32,000 bases of DNA from Nitrosomonas europaea (GTDB lineage: Bacteria > Pseudomonadota > Gammaproteobacteria > Burkholderiales > Nitrosomonadaceae). Positions within the stretch are counted from its first letter, which is position 1; every line of letters starts with the position of its first letter. Where the stretch lies: contig NZ_FUWK01000033.1 of assembly GCF_900167395.1 (NCBI RefSeq), forward strand, positions 864 through 32,863. The letters are read 5' to 3'. Both the position numbers and the translations under genes were made by a program. Below, piece after piece: positions 1,611-19,434 of the stretch. Under the pieces are notes generated by a model, which searched no databases, was not told the DNA's origin, and saw only the letters and a program-made list of their open reading frames with translations.

Positions 1611-3398
1611 TTATCCATGCGCTCTCATCTTTTCTCCGGTTTGTACTTGCCACAGGTTGGTGTACAGACCGTTACGCGCCAGGAGGGCCTCGTGTGTACC
1701 GGTTTCCACTACTTCACCCTTGTCCAGTACATAAATGCAATGGGCATTACGGATGGTGGAAAGACGGTGTGCGATCACAATGGTGGTGCGGCCAACAGTA
1801 ATCCGTTCCAGAGAACGCTGGATGGCTGCTTCTGTTTCATTATCCACTGCTGAAGTAGCTTCATCGAGTACCAGCACCGGCGGATTCTTGAGAACAGCAC
1901 GGGCAATCGAGATGCGCTGTCGCTGGCCGCCGGAGAGTTTCTGCCCGCGTTCGCCTACGATGGTCTGATAATCATCCGGCAGTTCCATGATGAAATCATG
2001 TGCCTCAGCTGTTCTGGCTGCGGCGATGACATCTTCCATATGGGCGCCGGACGAACCATACGCGATATTTTCATACACCGTGCCATGGAACAGATAAACG
2101 TCCTGGCTGACCAGACCGATCGATTTGCGCAGATCATGCAGGCGCAAATCACGGATATCGTGACCATCCAGCAGAATACGTCCTTGTTGCGGCTCGTAGA
2201 AACGGAGCAGCAGTTTGACTATCGTACTCTTGCCGCTGCCGGTAGCCCCGACCAGTGCAATTGTCTGGCCGGCATGAACAGTCAGGGAAAGATGGTTCAG
2301 TGTCGATGCGCGCCGCTCATAGTTGAAGCTGATATCGTCAAAAATGATTTCGCCGCTGACCTGTGCCGCGGGTAGTGTTTGCGGCCCGTCTGTAATGGTC
2401 GGTTGAGCCTGTAATAAATCCAGCACGCGGTGTGTGGAGGCCATCGCGCGCTGGTACAGATCGAGTGTTTCCCCCAGGCGAGTGAGCGGCCACAGCAGGC
2501 GCTGGGTCATGAATACCAGAATGCTGTACGCGCCGACATTCAGTTCGCCGCCAGCAGCCATTAGCCCCGCTGCAATCATGATGGCACTGAAACCGAGTGC
2601 GATCACCATACGGATGATCGGTACAAAGGCAGCACTGAGGGCAATCGCGTGCTGATTCTTTTCCTGATAGATCTGGCTTTCGCGCTCAATCTGGCGTAAT
2701 TCATACGGTTCAGTCGTATAACTTTTGATGGTGGCAATGCCGCCAAGATTATTGGACAGATAGCTGTTCAGAATGCTGACCTGTTCGCGGACGGCCATAT
2801 AGCGCGGAGCAATGCGTTTCTGAAACAGGTAGGAACCGGCCACGACGAATGGCATGGGCAATAACGCCATCCATGCCACGCCAGGTGTCAGGTAGATGAA
2901 CATGCCACCCACTGTGATGACGGTGGTCAGAAGCTGAATGAGGTCATTTGCTCCGACATCCAGAAACCGCTCCAGCTGATTGATGTCATCGTTCAGGATC
3001 GCCATCATCCCGCCGGTGCTGCGTGCCTCGAAGTAGGCCAGCTCCAGTTTCTGAACATGATCATAGGCATCCAGGCGCAACGTATGCTGAATACTCTGCG
3101 CCAGGTTGCGCCAGCAGAGCTTGAGCAGATATTCCCAGATGGATTCGAATCCCCAGACGATGAGGGTGATCGTAGCCAGTATCCAGAGCTGGGTCGAGAC
3201 CTCCGGAAATCCCAGCCGGGCAAATACCGAAGATTGCTGATTGACGACGATGTCTACTGCCATCCCTATCAATACCGGCGGCGCCAGATCGAACAGCTTA
3301 TTGAGAATCGAAAATAATGTAGCCAGCCAGATACGGCCGCGAAAAGCATGGCCGTAGCGCAGCAGGCGAATCAGCGGAGCGGATGAATGATTGGACAT
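1611..3398 (-). CDS. ABC exporter with fused permease and ATPase (MsbA/MdlB-like type I exporter).
   Basis: Six-TM-type N-terminal domain. Walker A GATGSGKST, signature LSGGQRQR, Walker B VLVLDEATSAVD. Start trimmed to MSNHSSAPLIRLL (ATG 3398). The 54-codon upstream extension in the track has no family-like sequence. Confidence 0.9.
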   Translation of the reverse strand: MSNHSSAPLIRLLRYGHAFRGRIWLATLFSILNKLFDLAPPVLIGMAVDIVVNQQSSVFARLGFPEVSTQLWILATITLIVWGFESIWEYLLKLCWRNLAQSIQHTLRLDAYDHVQKLELAYFEARSTGGMMAILNDDINQLERFLDVGANDLIQLLTTVITVGGMFIYLTPGVAWMALLPMPFVVAGSYLFQKRIAPRYMAVREQVSILNSYLSNNLGGIATIKSYTTEPYELRQIERESQIYQEKNQHAIALSAAFVPIIRMVIALGFSAIMIAAGLMAAGGELNVGAYSILVFMTQRLLWPLTRLGETLDLYQRAMASTHRVLDLLQAQPTITDGPQTLPAAQVSGEIIFDDISFNYERRASTLNHLSLTVHAGQTIALVGATGSGKSTIVKLLLRFYEPQQGRILLDGHDIRDLRLHDLRKSIGLVSQDVYLFHGTVYENIAYGSSGAHMEDVIAAARTAEAHDFIMELPDDYQTIVGERGQKLSGGQRQRISIARAVLKNPPVLVLDEATSAVDNETEAAIQRSLERITVGRTTIVIAHRLSTIRNAHCIYVLDKGEVVETGTHEALLARNGLYTNLWQVQTGEKMRAHG

Positions 3399-4480: not shown

Positions 4481-5533
4481 TCATGAGTCACAATCTTTTT
4501 CTTTCCTGCGATTAAACTCGCGATAAATGCTCGGCGCCACGCCGATCCAGCGCTTGAAGGCGAGATTGAACGCCGGGAGTGCCGTATATCCCAGCAGGCC
4601 ACAGATGTTGCTGATGGGAACATCGGTCGTTTCCAGCATCTCGCATGCAAGTGATTCCCTCACCTTGTCCAGGATCGCCGAAAAGCTGGTGTTTTCCTGC
4701 TGCAGCAGGCGCTGCAGCTTCTTTGGACTGAGTCCCAGCGATACCGCGAAGTACTCGAGATTGCACAGGCTGGTATTGAGCACGATCGGGATGCCAGCGG
4801 CGACGGTTGCCGCGACCGACTGATCATAGAGCGGCATCTTGGCAATCCGGTAACGCAGATAGAGATCGAGCAATGGCTCGAGTCCGGCCAGGCGACCATT
4901 GGTCGGTCGATTGAGATATTCATGCGGGAATACGAGCTCGTTGTGCGCAGCTTCGAACTCGACCGGGCAGTCGAAAAGTGCTTCATGCGGTTGCGTGTCA
5001 CAAGGACGGGCATGGCGGAACCGGATGAGATGGGCTTTTTCATCTGTAGCATCGATCACGGTTCTGGCCATTCGGTAGAATGTAGCGACCAGTCCTTCTG
5101 TCTGCTGGCGCGGGGATTTTGCCAGGGGATCCTTCAACAGCCGCACGTATGCGAACGGGCCGCCGTCCCTGATCAGTAACGGAACCCAGGCATTCGTGTA
5201 GTAGCGCGCGTAGCGCTCGCATGCGTCAAGCCATTCTTCAAAGGTGTGCGTGATCTGTGAAAGAAAGATTGCTGCTCCTGCGGTGGGATAAGTATTCGGC
5301 AGCGAAAAAGCATGATCCAGGCCGAAGTTCGGACGTCCTAGTTCCTGCGCCGCTAGTTCGCAGAATATACCCTGGCGGGGCCAGGAGATGAGTATGTCGG
5401 GATTGCTGAACGCTTCCCTTGGCAGCCCTGCCTGGTCGGCCAGGGTATGGAGATCACCACCGGATGAATGGACGAGATCATCGAATCCAAACAGGCAATT
5501 CGGACGGATGTAGGGCTCTCGCCGCCCAATCAT
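4481..5533 (-). CDS. AraC-family transcriptional regulator (N-terminal arabinose-binding-like domain, C-terminal double HTH).
   Basis: C-terminus ISNICGLLGYTALPAFNLAFKRWIGVAPSIYR is the AraC HTH_18 signature. Start trimmed to MIGRREPYIRPN (ATG 5533). Divergent from the autotransporter gene. Confidence 0.85.
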   Translation of the reverse strand: MIGRREPYIRPNCLFGFDDLVHSSGGDLHTLADQAGLPREAFSNPDILISWPRQGIFCELAAQELGRPNFGLDHAFSLPNTYPTAGAAIFLSQITHTFEEWLDACERYARYYTNAWVPLLIRDGGPFAYVRLLKDPLAKSPRQQTEGLVATFYRMARTVIDATDEKAHLIRFRHARPCDTQPHEALFDCPVEFEAAHNELVFPHEYLNRPTNGRLAGLEPLLDLYLRYRIAKMPLYDQSVAATVAAGIPIVLNTSLCNLEYFAVSLGLSPKKLQRLLQQENTSFSAILDKVRESLACEMLETTDVPISNICGLLGYTALPAFNLAFKRWIGVAPSIYREFNRRKEKDCDS

Positions 5534-5812
5534 TCTTTTGTCTGCCAGAAATCTTCTCCTTCTTTTTTGGGCCGCACCTCTACCTGATGGGCGCGAACAA
5601 TCGTGAAGGGAAGAAATATAGCGGATAAAACCTGCATCGGAATCGCAGGTAGCCCCTTGATTGGGCTTCAATGTCTCAAATTATGAAGTATAAGGGGATG
5701 AAAATTAAAGAATCCCGGCGAAGCACTTAATAATCCCGGACCTCATAACGATTAAGAATTCGGTGACAACCGAAAATAGTATCCCGTTTCGTTATGAAAA
5801 AGATGTGCCCGT

Positions 5813-8800
5813 ATGAAATTTTCCACAATCCTTACCTTCCTGAGTGGTACCACCTTCGTATATCCTGCCGCATTTGCGCAAAGTATCATCGCCAGCGGTA
5901 ATATTCTTCCCGGTATCCCGGCGCCGCCTCTTGCGCTATGGCAACCTGCCAATTTACGTGTGGGCGTGAATGCAGCGGGCACGCTTTCCATTACCGATGG
6001 TGGTATGGTTGCCGGTCCGGGTCAGGCGCTCCTCGGCTCTGCCGTTGGTAGTTCTGGCACGGTGATGGTCAGTGGTAATGATTCCCTGTTCTCCACCGTA
6101 TTGCAAATGCACGTGGGTAGTAGTGGCACGGGCACTCTCAAGATTGAGGACAGGGGCACCGCCAATATCGGTACATTCCTTTATATCGGCCGTTTCATTG
6201 GTTCCGATGGCCTCGTGACTGTGAGCGGCGCGGGATCGAGGCTGACCAACGGCAACATGATGCAGGTCGGTAGCGAAGGCACCGGCGCTTTGATCATCGA
6301 AGATGGTGCAACGGTGAACAGCACGAACGTGACCCGGATCGGCTGGAGCTCGACAGGTATAGGTACGGCTATCGTTCAGGGTTCCGGTTCAAGCTGGACA
6401 ACGAACAACTCGATGTCCGTGGGTTTCGGCGGCTCTGGCAGATTGCTGATCGTAGATGGTGGCGCTGTAAGCAATGTCGAAGGCTTTGTCGGCCGCGAGA
6501 CCGGATCGACCGGCGAGGTGACGGTCTCAGGCGCGGGTTCTTCCTGGTCGAACAGCGCGGCCCTTGAGATCGGCAGTTTCGGCATGGGCGAGTTGATGGT
6601 CGAAGACGGTGGTGCACTCAGCAACACGGATGGCCGGATCGGGCGGGAGGCCGGCGCTATCGGTACCGTGACGATCAAGGATGCGGGTTCCACCTGGAGC
6701 AACACGGGTACGCTCTACATCGGCGATCTCGGCAAAGGTACGCTGACTGTTGCCGATGGCGGCAAGGCGAATATCGTGGCCAGCTTCGTGATTGGCCGCC
6801 AGGCGGGCGCCGAAGGTCTCGTGACCTTAAGCGGCGCGGGATCGAGCCTCATCAACACCAGTTCCACGCAGGTCGGCGGCGCGGGCAAGGGTACGCTGAT
6901 CGTCGAGAATGGCGGCGTGGGCCAATCGAACAACCTCTCGGTCGGGGTCTCGTCAGGCAGCACCGGATCGGTCGCGGTTCGCGGCGCCGATTCACGCTGG
7001 ATCGCAGGCAGCATCCTGACCATCGGCGCAAGCGGCCATGGCACGCTGACGATCGAAGACGGCGGCTCGGTCACCAGCACTCTGACCACTATCGGGTCCA
7101 ACACTTCGGGTCTCGGCGAAGCGACCGTCTCAGGCGCGGACTCCACCTGGACCAACAGCGGCGCCCTCATTGTAGGAGCACTGGGCAACGGCACGCTCAC
7201 CGTCTCAGACGGCGGCATGGTTTCGAATGCAACCGCAGGTATTGGCGTCGGTACAGGCCGCCAGGGCGTGGCCCTGGTTTCCGGCGCTGGCGCACGCTGG
7301 ATCAACAGCGGTGATTTAACCGTCGGTACCAACGGCAGCGCCACCCTGACCGTCGCAGACGGTGGCCATGTTAGTGTCGGCGGCGGCAACGGCATTGTTC
7401 ATGTCGCTGAAGCCGCGACAGCAAATGGCGTGGTGAATATCGGGGCTGCGGCGGGTAGTGCGCCGGTCGGGGCCGGCACGCTGGGCGCCGCCGAAGTTCG
7501 TTTTGGCGACGGCACCGGCAGGCTTAATTTCAATCATACCGATAGCGCCTATCTCTTCTCACCCGTCATCACCGGAAACGGGGCGCTCAATCACTATTCC
7601 GGCACGACCATCCTGACCGGCGACAACACCTATAGCGGTTCTACGATGATTGCGGGCGGTGTGCTCCAGCTCGGCAATGGCGGCACGAGCGGCTCGGTCA
7701 CCAGCGACATCCAGATCGACAGCACAGGAACACTGCGCATTGATCGTTCAAATGACTGGACCTATGCAGGTATCCTTTCCGGGACTGGCGTCTTCGATCA
7801 ATTGGGCACCGGTACGACGATGCTCACCGGCAACAGCGCTGCTTTTAACGGTACGACGACGGTTACGAATGGCCGTCTGATCGTTGGCATGGGCGGCGCC
7901 GGGACGCTCGGCGGTATGGTCAATGTGCTGGATGGCGCAACACTTGGCGGTTCGGGCACGGTCGGTAGCGCCGGGGCCGACGTCACCATCCTTGGCGGCG
8001 GTGTGCACGCGCCGGGTAACAGCGTTGGCGTTCAGACCATTGCCGGCAACTACGTCAATTACGGCACACTGCGAATCGACGGTACACCGGCGGGGACGGA
8101 CATGCTCATTGTGCAGGGTGGCGTCGATATTACCGGTGCCACCCTCGATCTCCAGCTTTCTCCTCCCGTGGCGTCGGGCTGGAATATCATCAACGGGCCG
8201 TTCACTATCATCGACAAGCAGAGTGCCGGCGCAGTGGCTGGCAGCTTCGGCGCGGTCAACAACAATCTGTTGTTCCTCGATCCATACGTGAATTATGCTG
8301 GTGGCGATGGCAACGATATCACGCTCGATTTCGTGCGCAATGACGTTGCCTTTGCATCGGTCGCGCTCACTCCGAACCAGATCGCGACGGGCAGGGGAAT
8401 TGGTACGCTGCCTTATGGCCACCCGATATGGAACACGATTGCGCTCATGAGCGATGAGGTCGCCGTGCGCCGGAGCTTCGACTTTCTTTCGGGAGAAATC
8501 CATGCCACTGCATCCAGCGTGCTGCTCGAAGAAAGCCGTTTTCCGCGCAGAGCAGTCAATGACCGGCTTCGATCCGCGTTTGACACAAATACCGACACTG
8601 CATTCTGGGCACATGGCTATGGGGCCTGGGCCGGTTGGCAGAGTGATGGCAACGCTGCCTCCCTCAAACGCGATACTGGCGGGTTGCTCCTGGGCCTCGA
8701 TGGTCAGCTTGGCAACTGGCGGACAGGCGTCATGACCGGCCGTAGCTGGACTGGTGTGACGGTTGCTGACCGGGCCTCGACCGCCGAGGCCGGAACGTGG

Positions 8801-9489: not shown

Positions 9490-10953
9490 TCAGAGAACGG
9501 GCGGCATCATGCCGCGATGAAATATCCATGCAACCCCGTAAGCAATCGGGGCAATGATGCCGAACAGCGCAATTGCATAGAGTAATGCCAACTTCCCCAT
9601 TCCTTTGAGCTTGCTGAAGTCAGTTATGATGCCGATGCTGATAAAGGTGAGCATGAACATCATGTTACGCATTGGCCCCTCGACTGCGGCAGCAGCTTTA
9701 TGCAAGGTTTCAGCGGCTTCTGATCCGCTGGAGGCGAGCATGATGTACGAAAACCAGACCAGGAGATAACCCAGTACAAATTTCGGGAACCGGTGCCAGA
9801 TTTCCATCAGTCCGATTTTGGACTGGCCGGGTTTGCGTTCTACTTTATATACCCACACCAGCGCCAGAACGAAGGCCCAGACACCGATAAACATATCGAT
9901 CCAGATTTTCGTGGTCAGTGATGCCATCAAAATCCAGCCTTCTTTCCATACGATGCCCAGGTTGGCCTCGGCATTGGCACGCATCAATTCATCCAGCATG
10001 GCTCCGGCAGCTGCATCGGCACCATCTGTCTTGACTGTCAGCCCCAGAGCGGAGCCGTTGACGATAGGCTGCTCCGGTGCTATTGCCGTATAAAACCCCG
10101 GCAGGATGATGAGTTCGAACATGGCGAAGATCACGACCAGAATCGAGACGAATGCCGGAAGTGCCGGGCGGGCACGAATGGCACCGGCGGTGGCGATGGC
10201 AGCCGATATGCCGCAGATGGAAATGCCGGAAGAAAGGACCGCTGCGGCATCACGTGATAAATGGAATACTCTGCGGCCAAGCGCATAGACGATCGGCCAG
10301 AACAGCATATAGGCGACAAAAGTAGCCGCAACCCCGGTCATGACCAGTTCTGTAATGAAACCGGCTGCTTCGATGGACATGACGCCGATTTTGATACCCA
10401 GGAATACGATTGCCGTTTTGATGAACCATTCCGGTTTTGCTGCTTCGTTGAGAAATCTGGCGGTATTTTTGAAGAAATTGCCGATGACGAGCCCGACCAG
10501 CAACGCCAGCAGGTAAGAAAAACCGCTGCCGAGAGACAATCCCCAGGACAGGCCATATTTGTCCATTTCATAGACAGAGGCTTTGAAATGAGCTTCATTG
10601 CCGATGATCCAGATGACCCAGGTCATGATGAAAAGAATGGTCCAACCGATAAAAAACTGTTTCAGGTCAAATTTCATCGACCATGCTGCCAGACAGGTCA
10701 GGGCGGTAAATACCAGATAAGTCACCAGTAACGACAATGCCGGATGCCATTCCGGCTTGCCACTGGATTTCAGTACGCCTTCGATGGAAAATTTTTCCCA
10801 TACCCAGGTGTCGGGTTTGGCCATCCAGCCGGTCAGCTCCCATCCCCAGAGTGAACTGACGCTCGCCATGAACATGATCAATCCCAGCCAGACTGCCCAC
10901 CAGTCTTCCGTTCTGGCCATACCTGAATACCATTTGTCATTCATTGCATTCAT
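9490..10953 (-). CDS. Polytopic membrane transporter, YeiH/UPF0324 (putative sulfate exporter) family-like.
   Basis: 487 aa with more than 10 hydrophobic segments. LSSGISICGISAAIATAGAI resembles the G-x-x-ICG-x-SA motif of the family. SD GAGGAA lies 11 nt upstream of the ATG. Longer than typical family members (~350 aa). Confidence 0.6.
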   Translation of the reverse strand: MNAMNDKWYSGMARTEDWWAVWLGLIMFMASVSSLWGWELTGWMAKPDTWVWEKFSIEGVLKSSGKPEWHPALSLLVTYLVFTALTCLAAWSMKFDLKQFFIGWTILFIMTWVIWIIGNEAHFKASVYEMDKYGLSWGLSLGSGFSYLLALLVGLVIGNFFKNTARFLNEAAKPEWFIKTAIVFLGIKIGVMSIEAAGFITELVMTGVAATFVAYMLFWPIVYALGRRVFHLSRDAAAVLSSGISICGISAAIATAGAIRARPALPAFVSILVVIFAMFELIILPGFYTAIAPEQPIVNGSALGLTVKTDGADAAAGAMLDELMRANAEANLGIVWKEGWILMASLTTKIWIDMFIGVWAFVLALVWVYKVERKPGQSKIGLMEIWHRFPKFVLGYLLVWFSYIMLASSGSEAAETLHKAAAAVEGPMRNMMFMLTFISIGIITDFSKLKGMGKLALLYAIALFGIIAPIAYGVAWIFHRGMMPPVL

Positions 10954-10974
10954 TTCTTGCTTGTTTCCTCGTTT

Positions 10975-11253
10975 TTATTGCACCACTGATACAGGTGATT
11001 TCAAGTCCAGACGGATGTAACGGTTGAAGTAATGGTAGGCGTATTGGCGTATCCAGGCGGGAATGCAGCTATGATCGAAAATCATGAATACTGTCACGCA
11101 GCTATTTTCCGGAAATAATTGCCTGTCCAGCAGATACCGGATCAGAGCCTGATCCAGTTCCGCCAGGGTTTGTCCGCAAGCTTCGAAGTCCTGATGGTAT
11201 GCGATCCATTTGATCCCATCATGTATCAACCGAACTTCCAGATCAGCTTTCAT
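10975..11253 (-). CDS. Hypothetical 92-aa protein with weak HicB/DUF1902-like fold resemblance.
   Basis: MKADLEVRLIHDGIKWIAYHQDFEACGQTLAELDQALIRYL. Its ATG (11253-11251) overlaps the stop (11252-11250) of the upstream small ORF as ATGA. Start trimmed from the 120-aa track ORF. Confidence 0.45.
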   Translation of the reverse strand: MKADLEVRLIHDGIKWIAYHQDFEACGQTLAELDQALIRYLLDRQLFPENSCVTVFMIFDHSCIPAWIRQYAYHYFNRYIRLDLKSPVSVVQ

Positions 11254-11698: not shown

Positions 11699-11749
11699 AT
11701 CATCCTGTTTCTAAAGCAGTGCAGCTGAATGAGGCTGAAACAGGATGAT
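11699..11749. repeat. 13-bp perfect inverted repeat (ATCATCCTGTTTC / GAAACAGGATGAT) with a 25-nt loop.
   Basis: Arms at 11699-11711 and 11737-11749, read directly. It lies in the long intergenic region. Confidence 0.5.
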
Positions 11750-11856
11750 GACCCTCTGATAGTAGCGTATTACATGAAAATACGAACAAAGTCGGGTGGA
11801 ACCGGAATTTATTCCAATTGATTACCGGAGAAGTTTGTTTAGTCCGGGATGGGTTG

Positions 11857-11886
11857 TTGACAATGATTCTCATTATCTGCTATTTT
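11857..11886 (+). promoter_or_regulatory. Sigma70-type promoter (TTGACA-18 nt-TATTTT) with an embedded near-consensus Fur box.
   Basis: GACAATGATTCTCATTATC (11859-11877) matches the E. coli Fur consensus GATAATGATAATCATTATC at 16 of 19 positions. The -35 TTGACA is at 11857-11862 and the -10 TATTTT at 11881-11886. Confidence 0.6.
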
Positions 11887-12108
11887 TCGAAAAAATCGGA
11901 TTTGCATATAAATGTTTCTTGTTGCAGCCGGCTGATTGGCTGACAGTTTCAAATTTCCGATAAATATTTTTTCACGGCCGGGAAAGCATTCTCTGGTTTT
12001 CTACCCGGCCGACGCTTTCTGCCAGCTTTCGCCTGTTTTTTGCCAAGCCAGCCTCGTATTTCGATATTGCCAGCCAGACCCTGTTTTCGGTCCGCCAGCC
12101 CTTGGGTG

Positions 12109-12378
12109 GGAACCTCTGCACGAATCCCACATGGCCGCACACTGTGTTTTGCGGATGGAATGCAAGGCGAGTGAGGTAGTGAATGGTGACCCCTTCACGA
12201 CGAACTCAACGCTGCAGTCCGTCTGCAAAATCAGTGCCCTCAGGGTTGTGGCAAAATCACGCGCTCGCTGTGTCGTGCGCCTCGGCATCGTAGAATAACT
12301 ACGACCTTCGTTGCGCTCCTTGCGATCATCATGATTTTGCCCGCAATGCGGTTCATGGAGGATTCGTGCAGAGGTTCC
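12109..12378. mobile_element. 270-bp MITE-like element bounded by perfect 19-bp terminal inverted repeats.
   Basis: GGAACCTCTGCACGAATCC at 12109-12127 and its exact reverse complement at 12360-12378. Imperfect complementarity (CATG..CCGCA) extends about 12 nt inward. Nested internal hairpins. No convincing ORF. No obvious target-site duplication. Confidence 0.45.
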
Positions 12379-12434
12379 TTAAAAATCCGTCAGTACATGT
12401 CGTGCTGTCAGTTTAATTTCAGGAGCGTAATCGT

Positions 12435-13133
12435 ATGTTGTCTTTATGCAGAATCATCATCAGTCTCTTGCTGGTCGGCTTGAGTGGTCAGGCTGCTGCC
12501 GATATTTCCAACAGCCCGAATCCTTATGATGCCGGGTATGGTTTCGATACACCGGATGAGGCCGGCTGGGGTGGCTGGATGCGAGGTGGTGCAAGTACGC
12601 TTTATGCCGAGTGGGATACCATTTCCGATGCCAGTTATGGTGGTAGTGGTGATCGGACAGCTGCGCCTGATATAGGTACCCATAACGTGGCTGATGCTTA
12701 TCTTAGTTGGAACCCGGGTGTTTTTGTCACCAGCACGGGTAATCTCATTACCCCTAGTGTAGTGCAAGAATTCTTCATTCGTATATCGCCCGTATCTTTG
12801 TTCAGCGGCCCGCTCGTCGTTGCATTGCAGGTCGAGATGTGGGGAGATGAGCCTGCTGCGCCTCTGCTCAATGGTCTTGCTGCATCCAGCTGGACCAGGA
12901 CTTTCACGGGCACTTCCGTGACCGATCATGATTTGAACCAGTATCTTGGGCTGTGGTATTTTGCCAACACGGTAAATCATTTCGAGTTTGATCTTACAAA
13001 TCAACCGTTTATATCGCTTGCGCAAGTGGCGGTGGATATCGCCCAGGTATCGGAACCGTACATGCTGGCTATCATGCTGACTGGCCTGATTCTGATTGGA
13101 TCGATGACACGGTACCGCAGCAGACCAATCTGA
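12435..13133 (+). CDS. Secreted PEP-CTERM-type sorting-signal protein (SEP variant); N-terminal domain of unknown function.
   Basis: SD AGGAG lies 8 nt upstream. Signal peptide MLSLCRIIISLLLVGLSGQAAA. The C-terminus VSEP-YMLAIMLTGLILIGSMT-RYRSR has the motif, TM helix and basic cluster. Confidence 0.75.
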   Translation: MLSLCRIIISLLLVGLSGQAAADISNSPNPYDAGYGFDTPDEAGWGGWMRGGASTLYAEWDTISDASYGGSGDRTAAPDIGTHNVADAYLSWNPGVFVTSTGNLITPSVVQEFFIRISPVSLFSGPLVVALQVEMWGDEPAAPLLNGLAASSWTRTFTGTSVTDHDLNQYLGLWYFANTVNHFEFDLTNQPFISLAQVAVDIAQVSEPYMLAIMLTGLILIGSMTRYRSRPI

Positions 13134-16403: not shown

Positions 16404-16982
16404 ATGGGTTCCAGAGCGGGTCATCCTTGTTCTTTGAAGTTGCAGGCAGCGGGTTTGCGCTCCACATCCACACGATTGAGCATACTGAAAGTCCTGGAGG
16501 CTGATTCGCAAAGATGGATTGAAGGTGAGGCGATCTTCAGGGAACTGATTGCACGCGGGACGACCATCAGCCTGGCAACTGTATATCGTGCGCTCAAGGA
16601 TCTCGATCATCGCGGGGTGCTGTTACGTGAATGGCGCGTCGGGGCCAGTGGTGGAAAGGCTGTCTACAGGTTGAGCTCGCATGATTTGCAAGATCGTAAA
16701 GGAGCCATCGTATGTCGTCAGTGTGGAGCCAGTGTGCCTATGGACGATTCTGTATTACTGCATGAACACCTGAGACAACTCGCTTCCAGGCATGGTTTTG
16801 TCCTGACGGAACAGCCCGTGACGATTCATATGACCTGTGGTCGTTGTGCAGGGGCGTCAGACAAAAAGGCTCTTCATGAAAAGAATACTTCTCCGACACT
16901 TCAACATTCCATGCCATTACTCCCTGCCAGGCGCCGAAAGAATAAGGCATCTGATGTGACCTGGCCAATTGAGTGCGAGTGA
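16404..16982 (+). CDS. Fur-family metalloregulator paralog, atypical (no HHDH motif, ~45-aa C-terminal extension).
   Basis: N-terminal winged helix LRSTSTRLSILKVLE...ISLATVYRALKDLDHRGVL. Two CxxC pairs (CRQCG, CGRCAG). SHD replaces the canonical HHDH. SD GGAGGGG upstream. Confidence 0.8.
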   Translation: MGSRAGHPCSLKLQAAGLRSTSTRLSILKVLEADSQRWIEGEAIFRELIARGTTISLATVYRALKDLDHRGVLLREWRVGASGGKAVYRLSSHDLQDRKGAIVCRQCGASVPMDDSVLLHEHLRQLASRHGFVLTEQPVTIHMTCGRCAGASDKKALHEKNTSPTLQHSMPLLPARRRKNKASDVTWPIECE

Positions 16983-17109
16983 AATGAACAGCCAAAATGA
17001 AGGGGCGTATGTGCTATACATTTTTCCGGTATTCCCGGCAGCAGGGAGGGGCATCACACCCGATCCAGCGGATGGGCACGATTCAAAAACAGGAGTATTC
17101 AGATGAAAA

Positions 17110-17144
17110 AACAATGATTGTCACCTGATTGATACTCATATTTT
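17110..17144 (+). promoter_or_regulatory. Weak Fur-box-like AT-rich sequence upstream of the TonB-dependent receptor.
   Basis: AACAATGATTGTCACCTGA matches the 19-bp Fur consensus at only about 10 of 19 positions. The adjacent TGATTGATACTCATA is also poor. Confidence 0.2.
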
Positions 17145-17214
17145 CTTTGTATTTACTATTTTTATAACAAAAATTTGGTTTTCAACCAATTATTTAACTT
17201 AAGGGAGATTGAAA

Positions 17215-19434
17215 ATGGCAAAGGTGTCTTCTCGTTCATGGGGGATATTCCCGATCAGGCCGGTTGTATCTGCATTGACACTGGCTTTTGGTGGGATGGC
17301 AGGTGCAAATGCAAGTGAGCCTGTGCCGCTACCTGAAATCAAGGTCAAATCAGGGAAAACCAGTGAAAGAAGCAATGAATACAAGGTAGATAAATCTGCC
17401 AGTCAGAAATTTACCGCTCCGCTCATTGATACACCCAAATCGATCACTGTCATTACCGATGAAGTCATCAAGGATAGCGGTTCGCTGACGTTCCAGGATG
17501 CGCTGCGGACCACACCGGGGATTACTTTCGGTAGTGGTGAAGGGGGTATTGCGTCAGGTGATCGCCCGTTCATTCGTGGATTCGACGTTTTTTCATCGAT
17601 TTATGTGGATGGTTTACGCGATCTCGGTACTCAGACACGTGAAATCTTCGCAGTCGAGCAGATGGAAGTACTGAAAGGCCCGAGCGGTAGTTTTGACGGT
17701 AGAGGTTCTGCAGGGGGTAGTATCAATATCGTCACCAAGCAGGCGCGGGCAGGCAACTTTTTCAAGGGTTCTGCCGGGCTCGGTACCGAAAAATTCAAGC
17801 GCGGGACAATCGATGGTAATTATACGATTGGGGAAAATGTTGCTGTCCGTCTGGTAGGAATGGCACACAAAGCGGATACCCCGGGACGTGATGGCGTCGA
17901 TGTTGAACGCTGGGGGTTGATGCCTTCCATTACTCTGGGACTGAATACCGCGACCAGTGCTACCTTCAGCTGGTATCACTTTGAAACGGATGATAAGTCG
18001 GACTGGGGAATTCCGTTCATTCAGAATACTGCAAATGGCGGCATTCCGGAAGGGAAGCCGGTGGGTTCCAGAAGCGCCTGGTATGGTGTTAAGGGCCGGG
18101 ATTTTCAGGATACTTCAGCCGATATCGGTACATTCAAAATTTCACATGCATTCAGCGATAATCTGGTCGTGCGCAATACTACGCGCTATAGCATCACGAC
18201 CAATGAATTCTTCGTCGGTCGCCCTAACATCAGCAGTGCTGATTTTGCAGCGGGCCTTGTGAACAGGGACGCTACGAGAAACCGTGGCACCAGAACCGAG
18301 ACGGTTGCCAACCTGACGGATGTATCGTTCATCTTTGATACCGGGTTCATCAAACATAGTTTGAATGCCGGTTTCGAAGTCAGTTGGGAAGATTACCGGA
18401 ATCGCACTTATGCCGGTGGTGCGATTATCAACCCGGCTGATCGTCTAACGCCGCTGGGTAATCCTGATTCATCAGTTGCGTTCGATCCCGTCACCCGCAA
18501 CGCGTATCCCAGTGCGGAAATAGAAGCTCATAATAAATCGGCTTATATATTCGATAGTATGGAGCTGACAGAAAAAATACTGTTCAATGCCGGTATTCGA
18601 TTTGATAATTATCAGGTCGATTTACAGAATCGCAATGCCAGTACCGGTGCCAATACGACTTCTTTCAAGCAAAACAAAAGTTTCTTCAATTATCAGGTAG
18701 GGGCTGTTTATAAGATGCAGCCCAATGCGAATATTTATGCAGCCTTTGCCACATCTTCTTCACCTGTCGGTTTGTCCATGGGAGATTTCGGTTATGCGGG
18801 CGGTGATCTAAATGCTAATACAGAAAGTTTGAAGCCAGAACGTACCGAAACTTATGAAGTAGGTACCAAGTGGCATGTATTGCACGATCTGGCGCTGACT
18901 GCCGCAGTGTTCCACACGATCAAAACCAATGCACGCGTCAACGTGGGCCCATCTGTTGAGAATGCAGGTAGAGCTGTAGTGAATGGTTTTGAACTTGGTT
19001 TTGCAGGGAATGTGACTGATAAGTGGAATGTATTCGGGGGGTATACCTTCCTCGATGCGGAACAGACTCGGGTAGGCGACAGCACCGATCAGAATGCAGT
19101 GGGTTCAGCCGGCAGTAAAGGTAAACAGCTGCATGGCACTCCCAAACATGCTGCCAGCTTCTGGTCTACCTACAAGGTGTTGCCACGTGTAACGCTCGGT
19201 GGCGGGTTATTCTATACCGGCAAGGTATATGCTGATCCCAGTAACAATGGCTATCTCCCGTCCTATGTGCGTTTCGACCTGATGGCAAAATATAACATTA
19301 GCCAGAATCTGGACGTGCAGTTGAATGTTCAGAATCTGACGGACAAACGTTATTTCAATACGACCTATTTTCGCCACTATGCTATACCGGCACCGGGACG
19401 TGTTGCGTTTGTCAACCTGAACTTAAAATTCTGA
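17215..19434 (+). CDS. TonB-dependent outer-membrane siderophore receptor, catecholate (Fiu/Cir)-like.
   Basis: SD AAGGGAG lies 7 nt before the ATG at 17215. Signal peptide, then DKSASQKFTAPLIDTPKSITVIT (plug). Beta-barrel ends ...VNLNLKF. No N-terminal FecA-type signalling extension. Confidence 0.92.
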   Translation: MAKVSSRSWGIFPIRPVVSALTLAFGGMAGANASEPVPLPEIKVKSGKTSERSNEYKVDKSASQKFTAPLIDTPKSITVITDEVIKDSGSLTFQDALRTTPGITFGSGEGGIASGDRPFIRGFDVFSSIYVDGLRDLGTQTREIFAVEQMEVLKGPSGSFDGRGSAGGSINIVTKQARAGNFFKGSAGLGTEKFKRGTIDGNYTIGENVAVRLVGMAHKADTPGRDGVDVERWGLMPSITLGLNTATSATFSWYHFETDDKSDWGIPFIQNTANGGIPEGKPVGSRSAWYGVKGRDFQDTSADIGTFKISHAFSDNLVVRNTTRYSITTNEFFVGRPNISSADFAAGLVNRDATRNRGTRTETVANLTDVSFIFDTGFIKHSLNAGFEVSWEDYRNRTYAGGAIINPADRLTPLGNPDSSVAFDPVTRNAYPSAEIEAHNKSAYIFDSMELTEKILFNAGIRFDNYQVDLQNRNASTGANTTSFKQNKSFFNYQVGAVYKMQPNANIYAAFATSSSPVGLSMGDFGYAGGDLNANTESLKPERTETYEVGTKWHVLHDLALTAAVFHTIKTNARVNVGPSVENAGRAVVNGFELGFAGNVTDKWNVFGGYTFLDAEQTRVGDSTDQNAVGSAGSKGKQLHGTPKHAASFWSTYKVLPRVTLGGGLFYTGKVYADPSNNGYLPSYVRFDLMAKYNISQNLDVQLNVQNLTDKRYFNTTYFRHYAIPAPGRVAFVNLNLKF

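What the first reader, a model, noticed from the sequence alone, without database searches (positions are those of the whole stretch)
12109..12378. 270-bp element with perfect 19-bp terminal inverted repeats between the Fur promoter and the PEP-CTERM gene
GGAACCTCTGCACGAATCC (12109-12127) is exactly reverse-complemented at 12360-12378. Imperfect pairing continues inward (CATG..CCGCA on both arms). The interior has no credible ORF but is packed with nested dyads: GTGAATGG-TGA-CCCTTCAC near 12177-12199, TGCAG-N5-CTGCA near 12212-12226, and TCGTAG-AATAA-CTACGA near 12287-12303. It also has three copies of GCAAAATCA (12225-12233 and 12251-12259 direct; 12332-12340 inverted). This is the anatomy of a MITE or internally deleted IS. 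Alternatively it is a large clamp-closed RNA domain in the 5' leader of the PEP-CTERM gene. I could not find a target-site duplication.
Basis: seen in the sequence. Interest (0 to 1): 0.6.

Follow-up and report, generated by a model that had tools for sequence, protein, structure and literature searches.

The report
Nitrosomonas MITE with IS5-type ends
The 270-bp palindromic element is a small non-coding transposon remnant (a MITE) that borrows the end sequences of an IS5-family insertion sequence and sits in the leader of an iron-regulated surface-protein gene of Nitrosomonas europaea; it is a new example of a well-known kind of element.

Summary
GGAACCTCTGCACGAATCC (12109-12127) is exactly reverse-complemented at 12360-12378, against 0 expected by chance. 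The nested dyads and the three GCAAAATCA copies are also real.

The element is a MITE, not a native RNA domain of the leader.
- Its 19-mer is the terminal repeat of full-length IS5-family insertion sequences (1.2 kb, 322-aa transposase, TTAG duplication).
- Copies of the same 270-bp sequence, 86-99% identical to one another, lie at seven or more unrelated Nitrosomonas sites.
- At a second locus, some genomes carry CTAA-element-CTAA and a sister genome carries a single CTAA. This proves insertion with a 4-bp duplication.
- At the window's own site, relatives carry the full element, a 150-bp version, a 57-bp version, a 5-nt scar, or nothing.
- The element has flipped in place between strains, as reported for Neisseria Correia elements.

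Only the ends resemble the IS, which makes it a "type II" MITE. The window copy has no target-site duplication, and I found no autonomous partner in Nitrosomonas.

The stems show more compensatory changes than shuffles give. These concentrate in the terminal repeats and fit arm-to-arm conversion. Any regulatory effect, such as a 32-pair dsRNA clamp in a Fur-box-driven leader, is inferred and untested.

Verdict: new member of a known kind, modest interest.

The parts
12109..12378 (.). Whole 270-bp non-coding element (type II MITE), in 'A-to-B' orientation on the + strand
   Evidence: Bounded by perfect 19-bp terminal inverted repeats. 88-95% identical to copies at other Nitrosomonas loci. No reading frame is conserved between copies.
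12109..12127 (+). Left terminal inverted repeat GGAACCTCTGCACGAATCC
   Evidence: Identical to the left end of the IS5-family element in L008 and L018, and 18/19 to the one on pADP-1 (L009).
12360..12378 (-). Right terminal inverted repeat, the exact reverse complement of the left one
12128..12139 (+). Sub-terminal imperfect continuation of the outer stem (CACATGGCCGCA); pairs with 12347-12359
   Evidence: 25 nt, 92%; fold. The two sub-terminal sequences differ (CACATGG vs TCCATGA), which gives the element a readable orientation.
12347..12359 (+). Partner of the sub-terminal stem (TGCGGTTCATGGA)
12140..12236 (+). Internal long hairpin 1. Its base is formed by a degenerate inverted GCAAAATCA motif pairing with the 12225-12233 copy. 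The apex is the GTGAATGG/CCCTTCAC dyad.
   Evidence: Folds. Deleted as a unit in the orthologous copy L028.
12237..12245 (+). Three-pair mini hairpin CCCTCAGGG between the two long hairpins
12246..12346 (+). Internal long hairpin 2. Its base is GGCAAAATCA (12250-12259) pairing with TGATTTTGCC (12332-12341). The apex is TCGTAG-AATAA-CTACGA.
   Evidence: I2, 10 nt, 100%; folds.
12379..12382 (+). TTAA on the right flank: the expected YTAR-type half of a 4-bp target duplication. The left-hand copy is missing (left flank GGGTG).
   Evidence: Other copies have CTAA/CTAA, TTAA/TTAA and TTAG/TTAG. Empty sites read GAGTG|TTTAAAAC or GAGTG|TTTAGAAAT.
11857..11886 (+). Promoter-like site TTGACA-18-TATTTT overlapping a Fur box at 11859-11877. 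It is context and not part of the element. It is conserved in all six orthologous leaders aligned across it, with or without the element.
12435..13133 (+). Downstream gene (232 aa, PEP-CTERM-type sorting signal). The element ends 56 nt before its ATG. The Shine-Dalgarno AGGAG at 12421-12425 lies outside the element.

Best explanation
The element is a non-autonomous transposable element, a type II MITE. Its 19-bp ends are the binding and cleavage sites of a DDE transposase of the IS5 family (NCBIfam model transpos_IS5_4). Its 230-bp interior is unrelated to that IS and codes for nothing.

A transposase supplied in trans by a full-length IS with the same ends inserted copies at YTAR-like targets such as CTAA, TTAA and TTAG, duplicating 4 bp. 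One such copy landed in the long 5' leader of a Fur-box-controlled PEP-CTERM gene, in an ancestor of N. europaea and its close relatives. It has been inherited vertically since.

Because it is a large composite palindrome, it is unstable in two ways. Hairpin-sized internal deletions shrink it (270 to about 150, to 57, to a 5-nt scar). Recombination between the two identical arms flips it in place and keeps the arms identical.

Shown here: the end identity with autonomous IS5 elements, multiple copies at unrelated sites, filled-versus-empty sites with a 4-bp duplication, the deletion series, and the in-place inversion.

Inferred: trans-mobilisation by an IS5 transposase, arm-to-arm conversion as the source of the mirrored changes, and any effect on expression. 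The likely effect is a dsRNA clamp of about 32 pairs in the leader that RNase III could cut, as shown for Correia elements in Neisseria.
For: 1. Ends. The 19-mer is immediately followed by a 322-aa transposase ORF in Ottowia L008. That ORF scores 327 bits against NF033581 IS5 family (cut-off 140). Complete 1205-bp relatives exist on pADP-1 (L009; IRL 18/19; TTAG/TTAG duplication) and in a metagenome (L018).

2. Copies. The 270-bp family occurs at:
- the window (identical in L011 and L022-24);
- L046, the orthologous site in a relative;
- L005;
- L010 (TTAA/TTAA);
- L014;
- L015, twice;
- L020, truncated;
- the carbonic-anhydrase locus in L038-L042.
Pairwise identity is 86-99%. L015 and L010 are Nitrosomonas. 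L005 and L007 come from one Nitrosomonas MAG.

3. Empty site. At the carbonic-anhydrase locus, L039-41 read CTAA-element-CTAA and L037 has one CTAA and no element.

4. The window's own site. L046 has the full element with the same flanks. L028 has about 150 bp with diverged ends. L007, L017 and L021 have 57 bp. L043 has GAGTG-GTTTC-TTAAAA. L036, L033, L044 and L030 have nothing. The Fur-box promoter is conserved in all six leaders aligned across it, and the sequence next to the RBS in all nine.

5. Inversion. L015/L038 and L039-41 carry the element at the same site in opposite orientations. They share interior substitutions found only at this locus and partly in L046 (GCCGTGTCACGCG).

6. Non-coding and not a known RNA. 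No frame is conserved and Rfam finds nothing.

7. Divergence is ordinary. Against L046 the element is 93.7% identical, pyrC 92.3% and the upstream leader 87.6%.

8. Precedents. IS5-TIR type II MITEs are known (PMC4596501). Correia inversion and RNase III cleavage are reviewed in PMC10969869 and PMC2649163.
Against: - The window copy has no target-site duplication. The left flank is GGGTG (GAGTG in most relatives) and the right is TTAA, and this holds in every lineage that carries it.
- I found no full-length IS with these ends in any Nitrosomonas DNA I could read. None of the 120 best relatives of the transposase is named Nitrosomonas. The resident 850-bp IS5-family element in L042 has only a loosely similar end, AGAACCTGTTTACGATC.
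- Stems show more compensatory double changes than shuffles give: 8 pairs against 1.8, and 0 in slid controls. Three of these lie in the interior hairpins, where arm-to-arm conversion is a less obvious explanation.
- G-U outnumbers A-C 17 to 8 positions on the window's + strand. That is roughly 1 chance in 20 on a 50:50 expectation by my own estimate, so it is a weak hint of strand-specific constraint.
Confidence: 0.9

Rival explanations
1. A MITE that has been co-opted. The copy in the leader acts as a regulatory module for the PEP-CTERM gene, and the copy upstream of carbonic anhydrase does the same there. It would work through RNase III cleavage or protection of the long dsRNA clamp, or as a switch whose two orientations give different leader RNAs.
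For: - It lies between a conserved Fur-box promoter and the RBS with no intrinsic terminator, so it should be transcribed.
- Both strands fold very strongly.
- It is retained intact, with perfect ends, in two lineages that differ by about 8% in pyrC.
- Both orientations exist at one locus.
- In four of six copies the same end faces the start of a co-directional gene.
- There is an excess of compensatory changes.
- Correia elements do all of this in Neisseria (PMC2649163, PMC10969869).
Against: - Relatives work without it, or with 57-bp and 150-bp remnants, and keep the promoter and RBS.
- Its divergence equals that of neighbouring DNA.
- No promoter-like or terminator-like site lies inside it on either strand.
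- No recombinase gene lies nearby among the ORFs checked.
- The orientation bias rests on six cases, and orientation flips between strains anyway.
Confidence: 0.07
2. A structured cis-regulatory RNA domain that belongs to the leader of the PEP-CTERM gene, riboswitch-like or thermosensor-like. On this reading, the resemblance of its clamp to IS ends is coincidental.
For: - Extreme predicted stability (z = -8.6).
- A three-way architecture with 98% of cells paired across copies, and some covariation.
Against: - No Rfam family matches.
- It is absent from orthologous leaders L036, L033, L044 and L030, and truncated in L007, L028 and L043.
- The same sequence sits at unrelated loci: next to a CcdB-like gene, inside the start of another gene, and upstream of carbonic anhydrase.
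- It occurs in both orientations at one site.
- Its 19-mer matches IS ends exactly in other genera.
Confidence: 0.02
3. An internally deleted IS (type I MITE): the two ends of a full-length IS joined after loss of the transposase gene.
For: The terminal 19-20 bases are identical to those of full-length IS5-family elements.
Against: - Beyond position 20 there is no similarity to either end of the IS in L008, L009 or L018 (blastn; sequences).
- There is no transposase remnant (tblastn; frames).
- A closer parent IS in Nitrosomonas cannot be excluded, because whole genomes could not be searched.
Confidence: 0.04

Closest known systems
Type II MITEs that share only their terminal repeats with IS5-family elements, e.g. 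BrickBuilt of Porphyromonas gingivalis and ATR of Neisseria meningitidis (ISNme1) (PMC4596501; definition in PMC10969869)
   Same: - Short and non-coding.
- Ends identical or nearly identical to IS5-family ends, with an interior unrelated to the IS.
- Several copies per genome, mostly intergenic.
- Duplications are sometimes absent or degraded.
   Different: - Different end sequence (GGAACCTCTGCACGAATCC) and different host (Nitrosomonas).
- The interior is two long hairpins that make a three-way palindrome. It is not a minisatellite or an AT-rich core.
Correia repeat-enclosed elements (CREE/NEMIS) of Neisseria (PMC2649163; PMC10969869, citing Elbeyioglu et al. 2017 for inversion)
   Same: - A palindromic MITE often placed just upstream of genes and co-transcribed, where it forms a dsRNA stem.
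- In-place inversion between strains is documented for both.
- Presence/absence differences occur between close strains.
   Different: Points about Correia marked (K) are from my general knowledge, not from a paper read here.
- Correia is 100-155 bp with 26-bp ends and a TA duplication (K). It has no known parent IS (K). It carries promoters and an IHF site.
- This element is 270 bp with a 4-bp YTAR-type duplication and a clear IS5-family source of ends. No promoter-like site was detected inside it.
- RNase III cleavage is shown for Correia and only inferred here.
Full-length IS5-family insertion sequences of the NF033581 type: pADP-1 68985-70189 next to atzC; Ottowia L008; metagenome L018
   Same: The terminal 19 bases match (18/19 to 19/19), and the 4-bp duplications are of the same YTAR kind (TTAG at pADP-1).
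   Different: Those are 1.2 kb and encode a 322-aa DDE transposase. This element encodes nothing and shares no sequence with them beyond the ends. They were found in Burkholderiales, Pseudomonas and Paenarthrobacter plasmids, not in Nitrosomonas.
Invertons: promoter-bearing segments flipped by site-specific recombinases, such as fimS, or the Bacteroides loci that share one inverted-repeat consensus (my general knowledge)
   Same: - A short segment bounded by inverted repeats upstream of surface-protein genes.
- Found in both orientations in close relatives.
- The same repeats occur at several loci.
   Different: - No internal promoter was detected and no invertase gene was seen nearby.
- The repeats are transposon ends with target duplications.
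- Inversion can be explained by ordinary recombination between 19-25-bp arms.

Membership tests
[quoted passage not shown] | Short (about 50-1000 bp), with no transposase or other conserved coding capacity | tested here: met
   The element is 270 bp. The six-frame translations of seven copies share no open frame, because indels shift frames. tblastn with the IS5 transposase finds nothing in it.
[quoted passage not shown] | Terminal inverted repeats | tested here: met
   19/19 perfect and 23/25 extended. The repeats are perfect or nearly so in all full copies.
[quoted passage not shown] | Ends match those of an autonomous IS | tested here: met
   19/19 to L008 and L018 and 18/19 to the pADP-1 element, each followed by an IS5-family transposase gene.
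[quoted passage not shown] | Several copies at unrelated genomic sites | tested here: met
   At least seven distinct flanking contexts in Nitrosomonas DNA. There are two copies on one contig (L015) and two loci in one MAG (L005, L007). The per-genome number in N. europaea could not be counted.
[quoted passage not shown] | Target-site duplication, with filled versus empty sites in relatives | tested here: met
   For the family: CTAA-element-CTAA in L039-41 against a single CTAA in L037, and TTAA/TTAA in L010. Not met for the window copy itself (GGGTG / TTAA), although empty orthologous sites exist (L044, L030, L036, L033).
[quoted passage not shown] | An autonomous partner in the same host that can move it in trans | tested here: inconclusive
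   None was found in the Nitrosomonas loci held or among the top 120 transposase relatives.
IS5-family-mobilised element (IS5 group) | 4-bp duplication of a YTAR-like target (a property of the IS5 group, from my knowledge of ISfinder descriptions) | tested here: met
   CTAA, TTAA and TTAG, plus one TTTG in another short element sharing these ends. Some pairs are imperfect (TTAA/TTAG in L005, TCAA/TCAT in L014).
Conserved cis-regulatory leader RNA (riboswitch-like) | Present and conserved at the orthologous position in relatives that keep the gene and promoter | tested here: not met
   Absent in four orthologous leaders. Reduced to 150 bp, 57 bp or a 5-nt scar in three others.
Conserved cis-regulatory leader RNA (riboswitch-like) | Match to a described RNA family | tested here: not met
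   Rfam 15 finds nothing at gathering score. At E up to 10 the only overlap is an insignificant partial hit.
Conserved cis-regulatory leader RNA (riboswitch-like) | Covariation supporting the structure | tested here: inconclusive
   8 pairs show double changes against 1.8 in shuffles and 0 in slid controls. Five of them are in the transposon ends. The copies are related, and the element flips strand in place, so DNA-level arm conversion explains most of the signal.
Inverton (recombinase-driven invertible promoter) | Both orientations occur at one site | tested here: met
   Carbonic-anhydrase locus: L015/L038 against L039-41, with shared locus-specific substitutions.
Inverton (recombinase-driven invertible promoter) | A promoter inside the invertible segment | tested here: not met
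   The consensus scan finds no sigma-70-like site inside 12109-12378 on either strand. This is a consensus scan only.
Inverton (recombinase-driven invertible promoter) | A dedicated invertase gene | tested here: inconclusive
   None appears among the window ORFs near the element or the ten scanned with Pfam. A distant master recombinase cannot be excluded.

The most novel reading that the evidence does not exclude
The Nitrosomonas element family has been co-opted as a set of flip-able, RNase III-sensitive leader modules. A shared pair of transposon ends would let one enzyme, a transposase or a host recombinase, invert copies upstream of several genes, here a Fur-controlled PEP-CTERM surface protein and a carbonic anhydrase. 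That would give an ammonia oxidiser heritable, reversible variation in expression. On this reading, selection on the transcribed RNA keeps the conserved three-way fold of the interior.
Probability: 0.07. Interest if true: 0.6.

Novelty: new member of a known kind. Interest (0 to 1): 0.3.

Why it matters
It explains an odd 270-bp palindrome in the N. europaea genome as ordinary mobile DNA. It also defines a Nitrosomonas MITE family that I could not find described in the searchable literature.

Practical consequences:
- The family breaks short-read assemblies. Three Logan contigs end inside it.
- It marks sites of rearrangement, as at L042 and L037.
- It places a very stable dsRNA clamp in the leader of an iron-regulated gene, which should be kept in mind when reading transcriptomes or engineering that promoter.
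- The locus gives a clean natural series for studying how large palindromes decay in bacteria: full, 150 bp, 57 bp, 5-nt scar, empty, and flipped.

Nothing here changes how MITEs are understood.

Tried and rejected
- **Rfam.** Searched at gathering score over the whole window and at E up to 10 over 11700-12600. Nothing relevant came up.
- **Protein search with the element's open frame.** I used the 90-codon minus-strand frame to count copies through spurious ORFs. There were no candidates, so one capped search was wasted.
- **Other collections.** The viral scan of the 19-mer and of the variant end found nothing. The plasmid collection searched with the whole element in distant mode also gave no match.
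- **Naming the pADP-1 IS.** I first recalled it as ISPps1. A paper states that ISPps1 is an IS91-family element (PMC1713258), so I dropped the name.
- **Length of the duplication.** From the first few copies I considered a 2-bp (TA) or 3-bp (TNA) duplication. The empty site with a single CTAA, together with TTAG/TTAG on pADP-1, settles it at 4 bp.
- **Strand-specific RNA selection.** G-U against A-C positions are 17 to 8. Paired columns vary in 41 of 196 cases and unpaired columns in 24 of 77 (p = 0.08). Neither result is convincing.
- **Resident Nitrosomonas IS as parent.** The 850-bp IS in L042 has the end AGAACCTGTTTACGATC, only loosely similar.
- **The N. europaea genome paper** is not held in the library.

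Full report
**1. The observation**

The window reads GGAACCTCTGCACGAATCC at 12109-12127 and its exact reverse complement at 12360-12378. With up to three mismatches allowed, these are the only two matches in 32 kb, and 100 shuffles gave none.

The repeat continues imperfectly to 25 nt (92%). In the predicted fold it becomes a stem pairing 12108-12139 with 12347-12379. Inside lie two long hairpins (12140-12236 and 12246-12346) and a three-pair mini hairpin.

Predicted stability is far beyond that of shuffles: RNA z = -8.6 on the + strand and -7.8 on the - strand, and DNA z = -9.0.

The context is as described. A TTGACA-18-TATTTT promoter-like site at 11857-11886 overlaps a Fur-box match. The gene at 12435 is a PEP-CTERM-type protein. 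The window is from a Nitrosomonas europaea-type genome. The protein is listed as "MULTISPECIES [Nitrosomonas]" and occurs on a 2,812,094-bp contig. Identical loci exist in three assemblies.

**2. Where the ends come from**

An exact-match scan of one genome per species found the 19-mer in Halothiobacillus, Acidovorax, Guyparkeria, Ottowia, a Dehalococcoidia MAG and a Nitrosomonas MAG. A metagenome scan added twelve contigs.

In Ottowia (L008) the 19-mer is followed 50 bp later by a 322-aa ORF. That ORF scores 327 bits against NCBIfam NF033581, IS5 family transposase.

An 89%-identical element on plasmid pADP-1 is complete:
- length 1205 bp;
- left end GGAATCTCTGCACGAATCC;
- right end, reverse-complemented, GGATGGTCTGCACGAATCA;
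- flanked by TTAG on both sides.

A second complete copy is in metagenome contig L018.

Other short elements of 150-270 bp use the same ends in Halothiobacillus, Acidovorax and metagenomes. They share nothing else with the window's element.

**3. The 270-bp sequence is multi-copy and mobile**

Full-length relatives of the whole element occur at the following places:

| Locus | Position | Note |
|---|---|---|
| L005 | 4636-4907 | second locus of the same MAG that holds the orthologous site |
| L010 | 10857-11128 | flanked by TTAA/TTAA |
| L014 | 559-830 | |
| L015 | 7559-7828 and 5439-5710 | two copies on one contig |
| L020 | from 2524 | truncated after 66 bp |
| L038-L042 | 3012-3283 | upstream of carbonic anhydrase |
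| L046 | 239-509 | the window's own site in a relative |

Pairwise identity among the ten aligned copies is 86-99%. L046 is 93.7% identical to the window copy. L015 and L010 carry Nitrosomonas proteins. No reading frame survives across copies.

The decisive comparison is at the carbonic-anhydrase locus. L039, L040 and L041 read ...GCT CTAA [element] CTAA CCCGATC.... L037, which encodes the identical enzyme, reads ...GCT CTAA CCCGGTC... with no element. That is a filled site and an empty site with a 4-bp duplication of a YTAR-type target. It is the same kind as the TTAG of the full-length IS.

**4. The window's own site**

I fetched nine orthologous leaders through homologues of the PEP-CTERM protein and aligned them. 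The Fur-box promoter is conserved in all six that were aligned across it. The 50 nt before the start codon are conserved in all nine. At the insertion point they differ:

| Locus | Protein identity to window | State at the insertion point |
|---|---|---|
| L046 | 77% | full 271-bp element, same flanks, same orientation, perfect ends |
| L028 | 79% | about 150 bp; hairpin 1 deleted; ends diverged (GGAAACTCTGCAAGAATC) |
| L007, L017, L021 | 90% | 57 bp: two perfect ends around 19 nt |
| L043 | 81% | GAGTG-GTTTC-TTAAAAATCC, which reads as a scar of the last bases of the right end |
| L044 | 76% | empty: GAGTG\|TTTAAAAC |
| L030 | 67% | empty: GAGTG\|TTTAGAAAT |
| L036 | 87% | empty; nearby bases also altered |
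| L033 | 81% | empty; nearby bases also altered |

The insertion is therefore old and vertically inherited. It is decaying by deletions that remove whole hairpins, and the gene does without it in several relatives.

Its divergence from L046 (6.3%) matches that of pyrC (7.7%) and is lower than that of the upstream leader (12.4%). There is no sign of special conservation.

This copy has no duplication. All carriers share the left junction GAGTG/GGGTG|GGAACC. The empty sites suggest that a "T-TTAA" is missing on the left. I cannot tell whether a small deletion followed the insertion.

**5. Inversion in place**

At the carbonic-anhydrase locus, L015 and L038 carry the element in one orientation and L039-41 carry it in the other, at the same nucleotide position. 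Both groups share the interior substitution block GCCGTGTCACGCG. No copy from another locus carries the whole block, and L046 shares one of its two substitutions. This is therefore one insertion that later flipped, not two separate insertions.

The 57-bp remnant in L007 also reads slightly better as flipped relative to the window: 56/59 matches against 54/61. This is weak evidence.

Inversion of Correia elements is already reported in Neisseria (review PMC10969869, citing Elbeyioglu et al. 2017).

**6. Structure and covariation**

Across ten copies, 98.4% of pair cells are standard pairs. Eight pairs show changes on both sides, against 1.8 +/- 1.0 in shuffles and none when partners are slid.

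Five of the eight are in the terminal repeats and reflect two events:
- L015 5439-5710 has four mirrored substitutions (GGAACCTCTGATTGAGTCC on both arms).
- The flipped carbonic-anhydrase copies have A-to-C mirrored on both arms.

Repeated recombination between the arms, which is the process that flips the element, would homogenise them. I take that as the likeliest cause. The three interior cases, all in L014, are not explained as easily.

G-U positions outnumber A-C 17 to 8 on the window's + strand. Unpaired columns vary slightly more than paired ones (31% against 21%, p = 0.08). Neither figure is strong. An element that changes strand in place is also a poor candidate for strand-specific RNA selection.

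**7. How it most likely works**

Shown:
- the ends equal IS5-family ends;
- copies are dispersed with 4-bp YTAR duplications;
- filled and empty sites exist;
- a deletion series exists;
- the element flips in place.

Inferred:
- An IS5-family DDE transposase supplied in trans recognised the 19-bp ends and moved the element.
- The palindrome promotes its own deletion and inversion.
- If the Fur-box promoter drives the PEP-CTERM gene, the leader RNA contains a clamp of about 32 pairs plus two 100-nt hairpins, with no terminator. It ends 56 nt before the ATG and leaves the Shine-Dalgarno sequence free.
- By analogy with Correia elements (PMC2649163), RNase III could cut this clamp and change mRNA stability. 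This is untested.

**8. What is not settled**

- I found no full-length IS with these ends in Nitrosomonas. The resident 850-bp IS5-family element in L042 has only a loosely similar end. Whole Nitrosomonas genomes could not be scanned, so the copy number per genome and the existence of a partner are both open.
- The origin of the interior is unknown. It matches nothing outside Nitrosomonas.

**9. Verdict**

This is a type II MITE with IS5-family ends, and a new member of a known kind. The RNA-domain alternative fails as a native feature of the leader. Interest is modest. The most novel reading still open is a co-opted, flip-able regulatory module, which I put at about 7%.

Noticed in passing
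window 11857-11886 and 16404-19434: The Fur-box promoter upstream of the element is conserved in all six orthologous leaders aligned across it. About 4 kb downstream, the window encodes a FUR-family protein (16404-16982) followed by a TonB-dependent receptor (17209-19434). The neighbourhood looks iron-related.
   Followed up: partly
window 12020-12105: The native leader just upstream of the element is built from repeated TGCCAGC(C) motifs, for example TGCCAGCTTTCGCCTGTTTT and TGCCAGCCAGACCCTGTTTT, 48 bp apart (D1). The last unit, TTGCCAGCCAGACCCTGTTTTCGGTCCGCCAGC, is conserved in the orthologues, including those without the element. Its function is unknown. It could be a regulator binding array.
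   Followed up: no
L015 5439-5710: One copy of the element has four substitutions in its terminal repeat that are mirrored on both arms (GGAACCTCTGATTGAGTCC / GGGACCTCTGATTGAGTCC). This variant end occurs nowhere else in the 46 loci held or in the viral collection. It could come from arm-to-arm conversion or from capture of the ends of a different IS. This is unresolved.
   Followed up: partly
L042 2972-3283 and L037 2940-3300: At the carbonic-anhydrase locus, L042 has a different left flank (...GGCTGTAGTA CTAA|element) and a 16-bp internal deletion. L037 has that same left flank joined to only 44 bp of the element, inside the DUF2807 gene, and has the empty CTAA site 250 bp further on. This looks like recombination or deletion between two copies of the element.
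   Followed up: partly
L005 4600-4925: This copy appears to be inserted after the third codon of a gene. ATGACCCCTAA|element|CTACCGCTGG would restore an in-frame M-T-P-N-Y-R-W. The terminal repeat supplies an in-frame GTG for the downstream part. This was read by eye, and the true start codon was not verified.
   Followed up: no
L001 6093-6244, L002 868-1028, L006 7137-7310, L013 1015-1280, L016, L019 8940-9099: Other short elements of 150-270 bp in Halothiobacillus, Acidovorax and metagenomes use the same 19-bp ends but have unrelated interiors. L019 has a perfect TTTG/TTTG duplication. These IS5-type ends seem to have seeded several independent MITE families.
   Followed up: partly
L025 1, L026 1, L027 1: Three short-read (Logan) contigs carrying the identical PEP-CTERM gene stop inside the element, at element positions 31 and 204. 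This is expected if the repeat breaks assemblies.
   Followed up: no
L008 4495-6292: In Ottowia, the IS5-family element that carries the 19-mer has lost its right end. An IS6-family-like transposase gene (5591-6292, minus strand) abuts the end of its transposase ORF. The IS6 assignment is by eye, from the sequence.
   Followed up: no
L010 10539-10860: The TTAA duplication of this copy overlaps the stop codon of a CcdB-like toxin ORF that ends at 10856. The CcdB assignment is by eye, from the N-terminal sequence.
   Followed up: no
L042 785-1634: A resident 850-bp Nitrosomonas IS (DUF4096 + DDE_Tnp_1 product) has perfect 21-bp ends AGAACCTGTTTACGATCTTTT. These loosely resemble the element's ends ((A/G)GAACCT.T..ACGA.TC). 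It could be a distant candidate for a mobilising partner.
   Followed up: no
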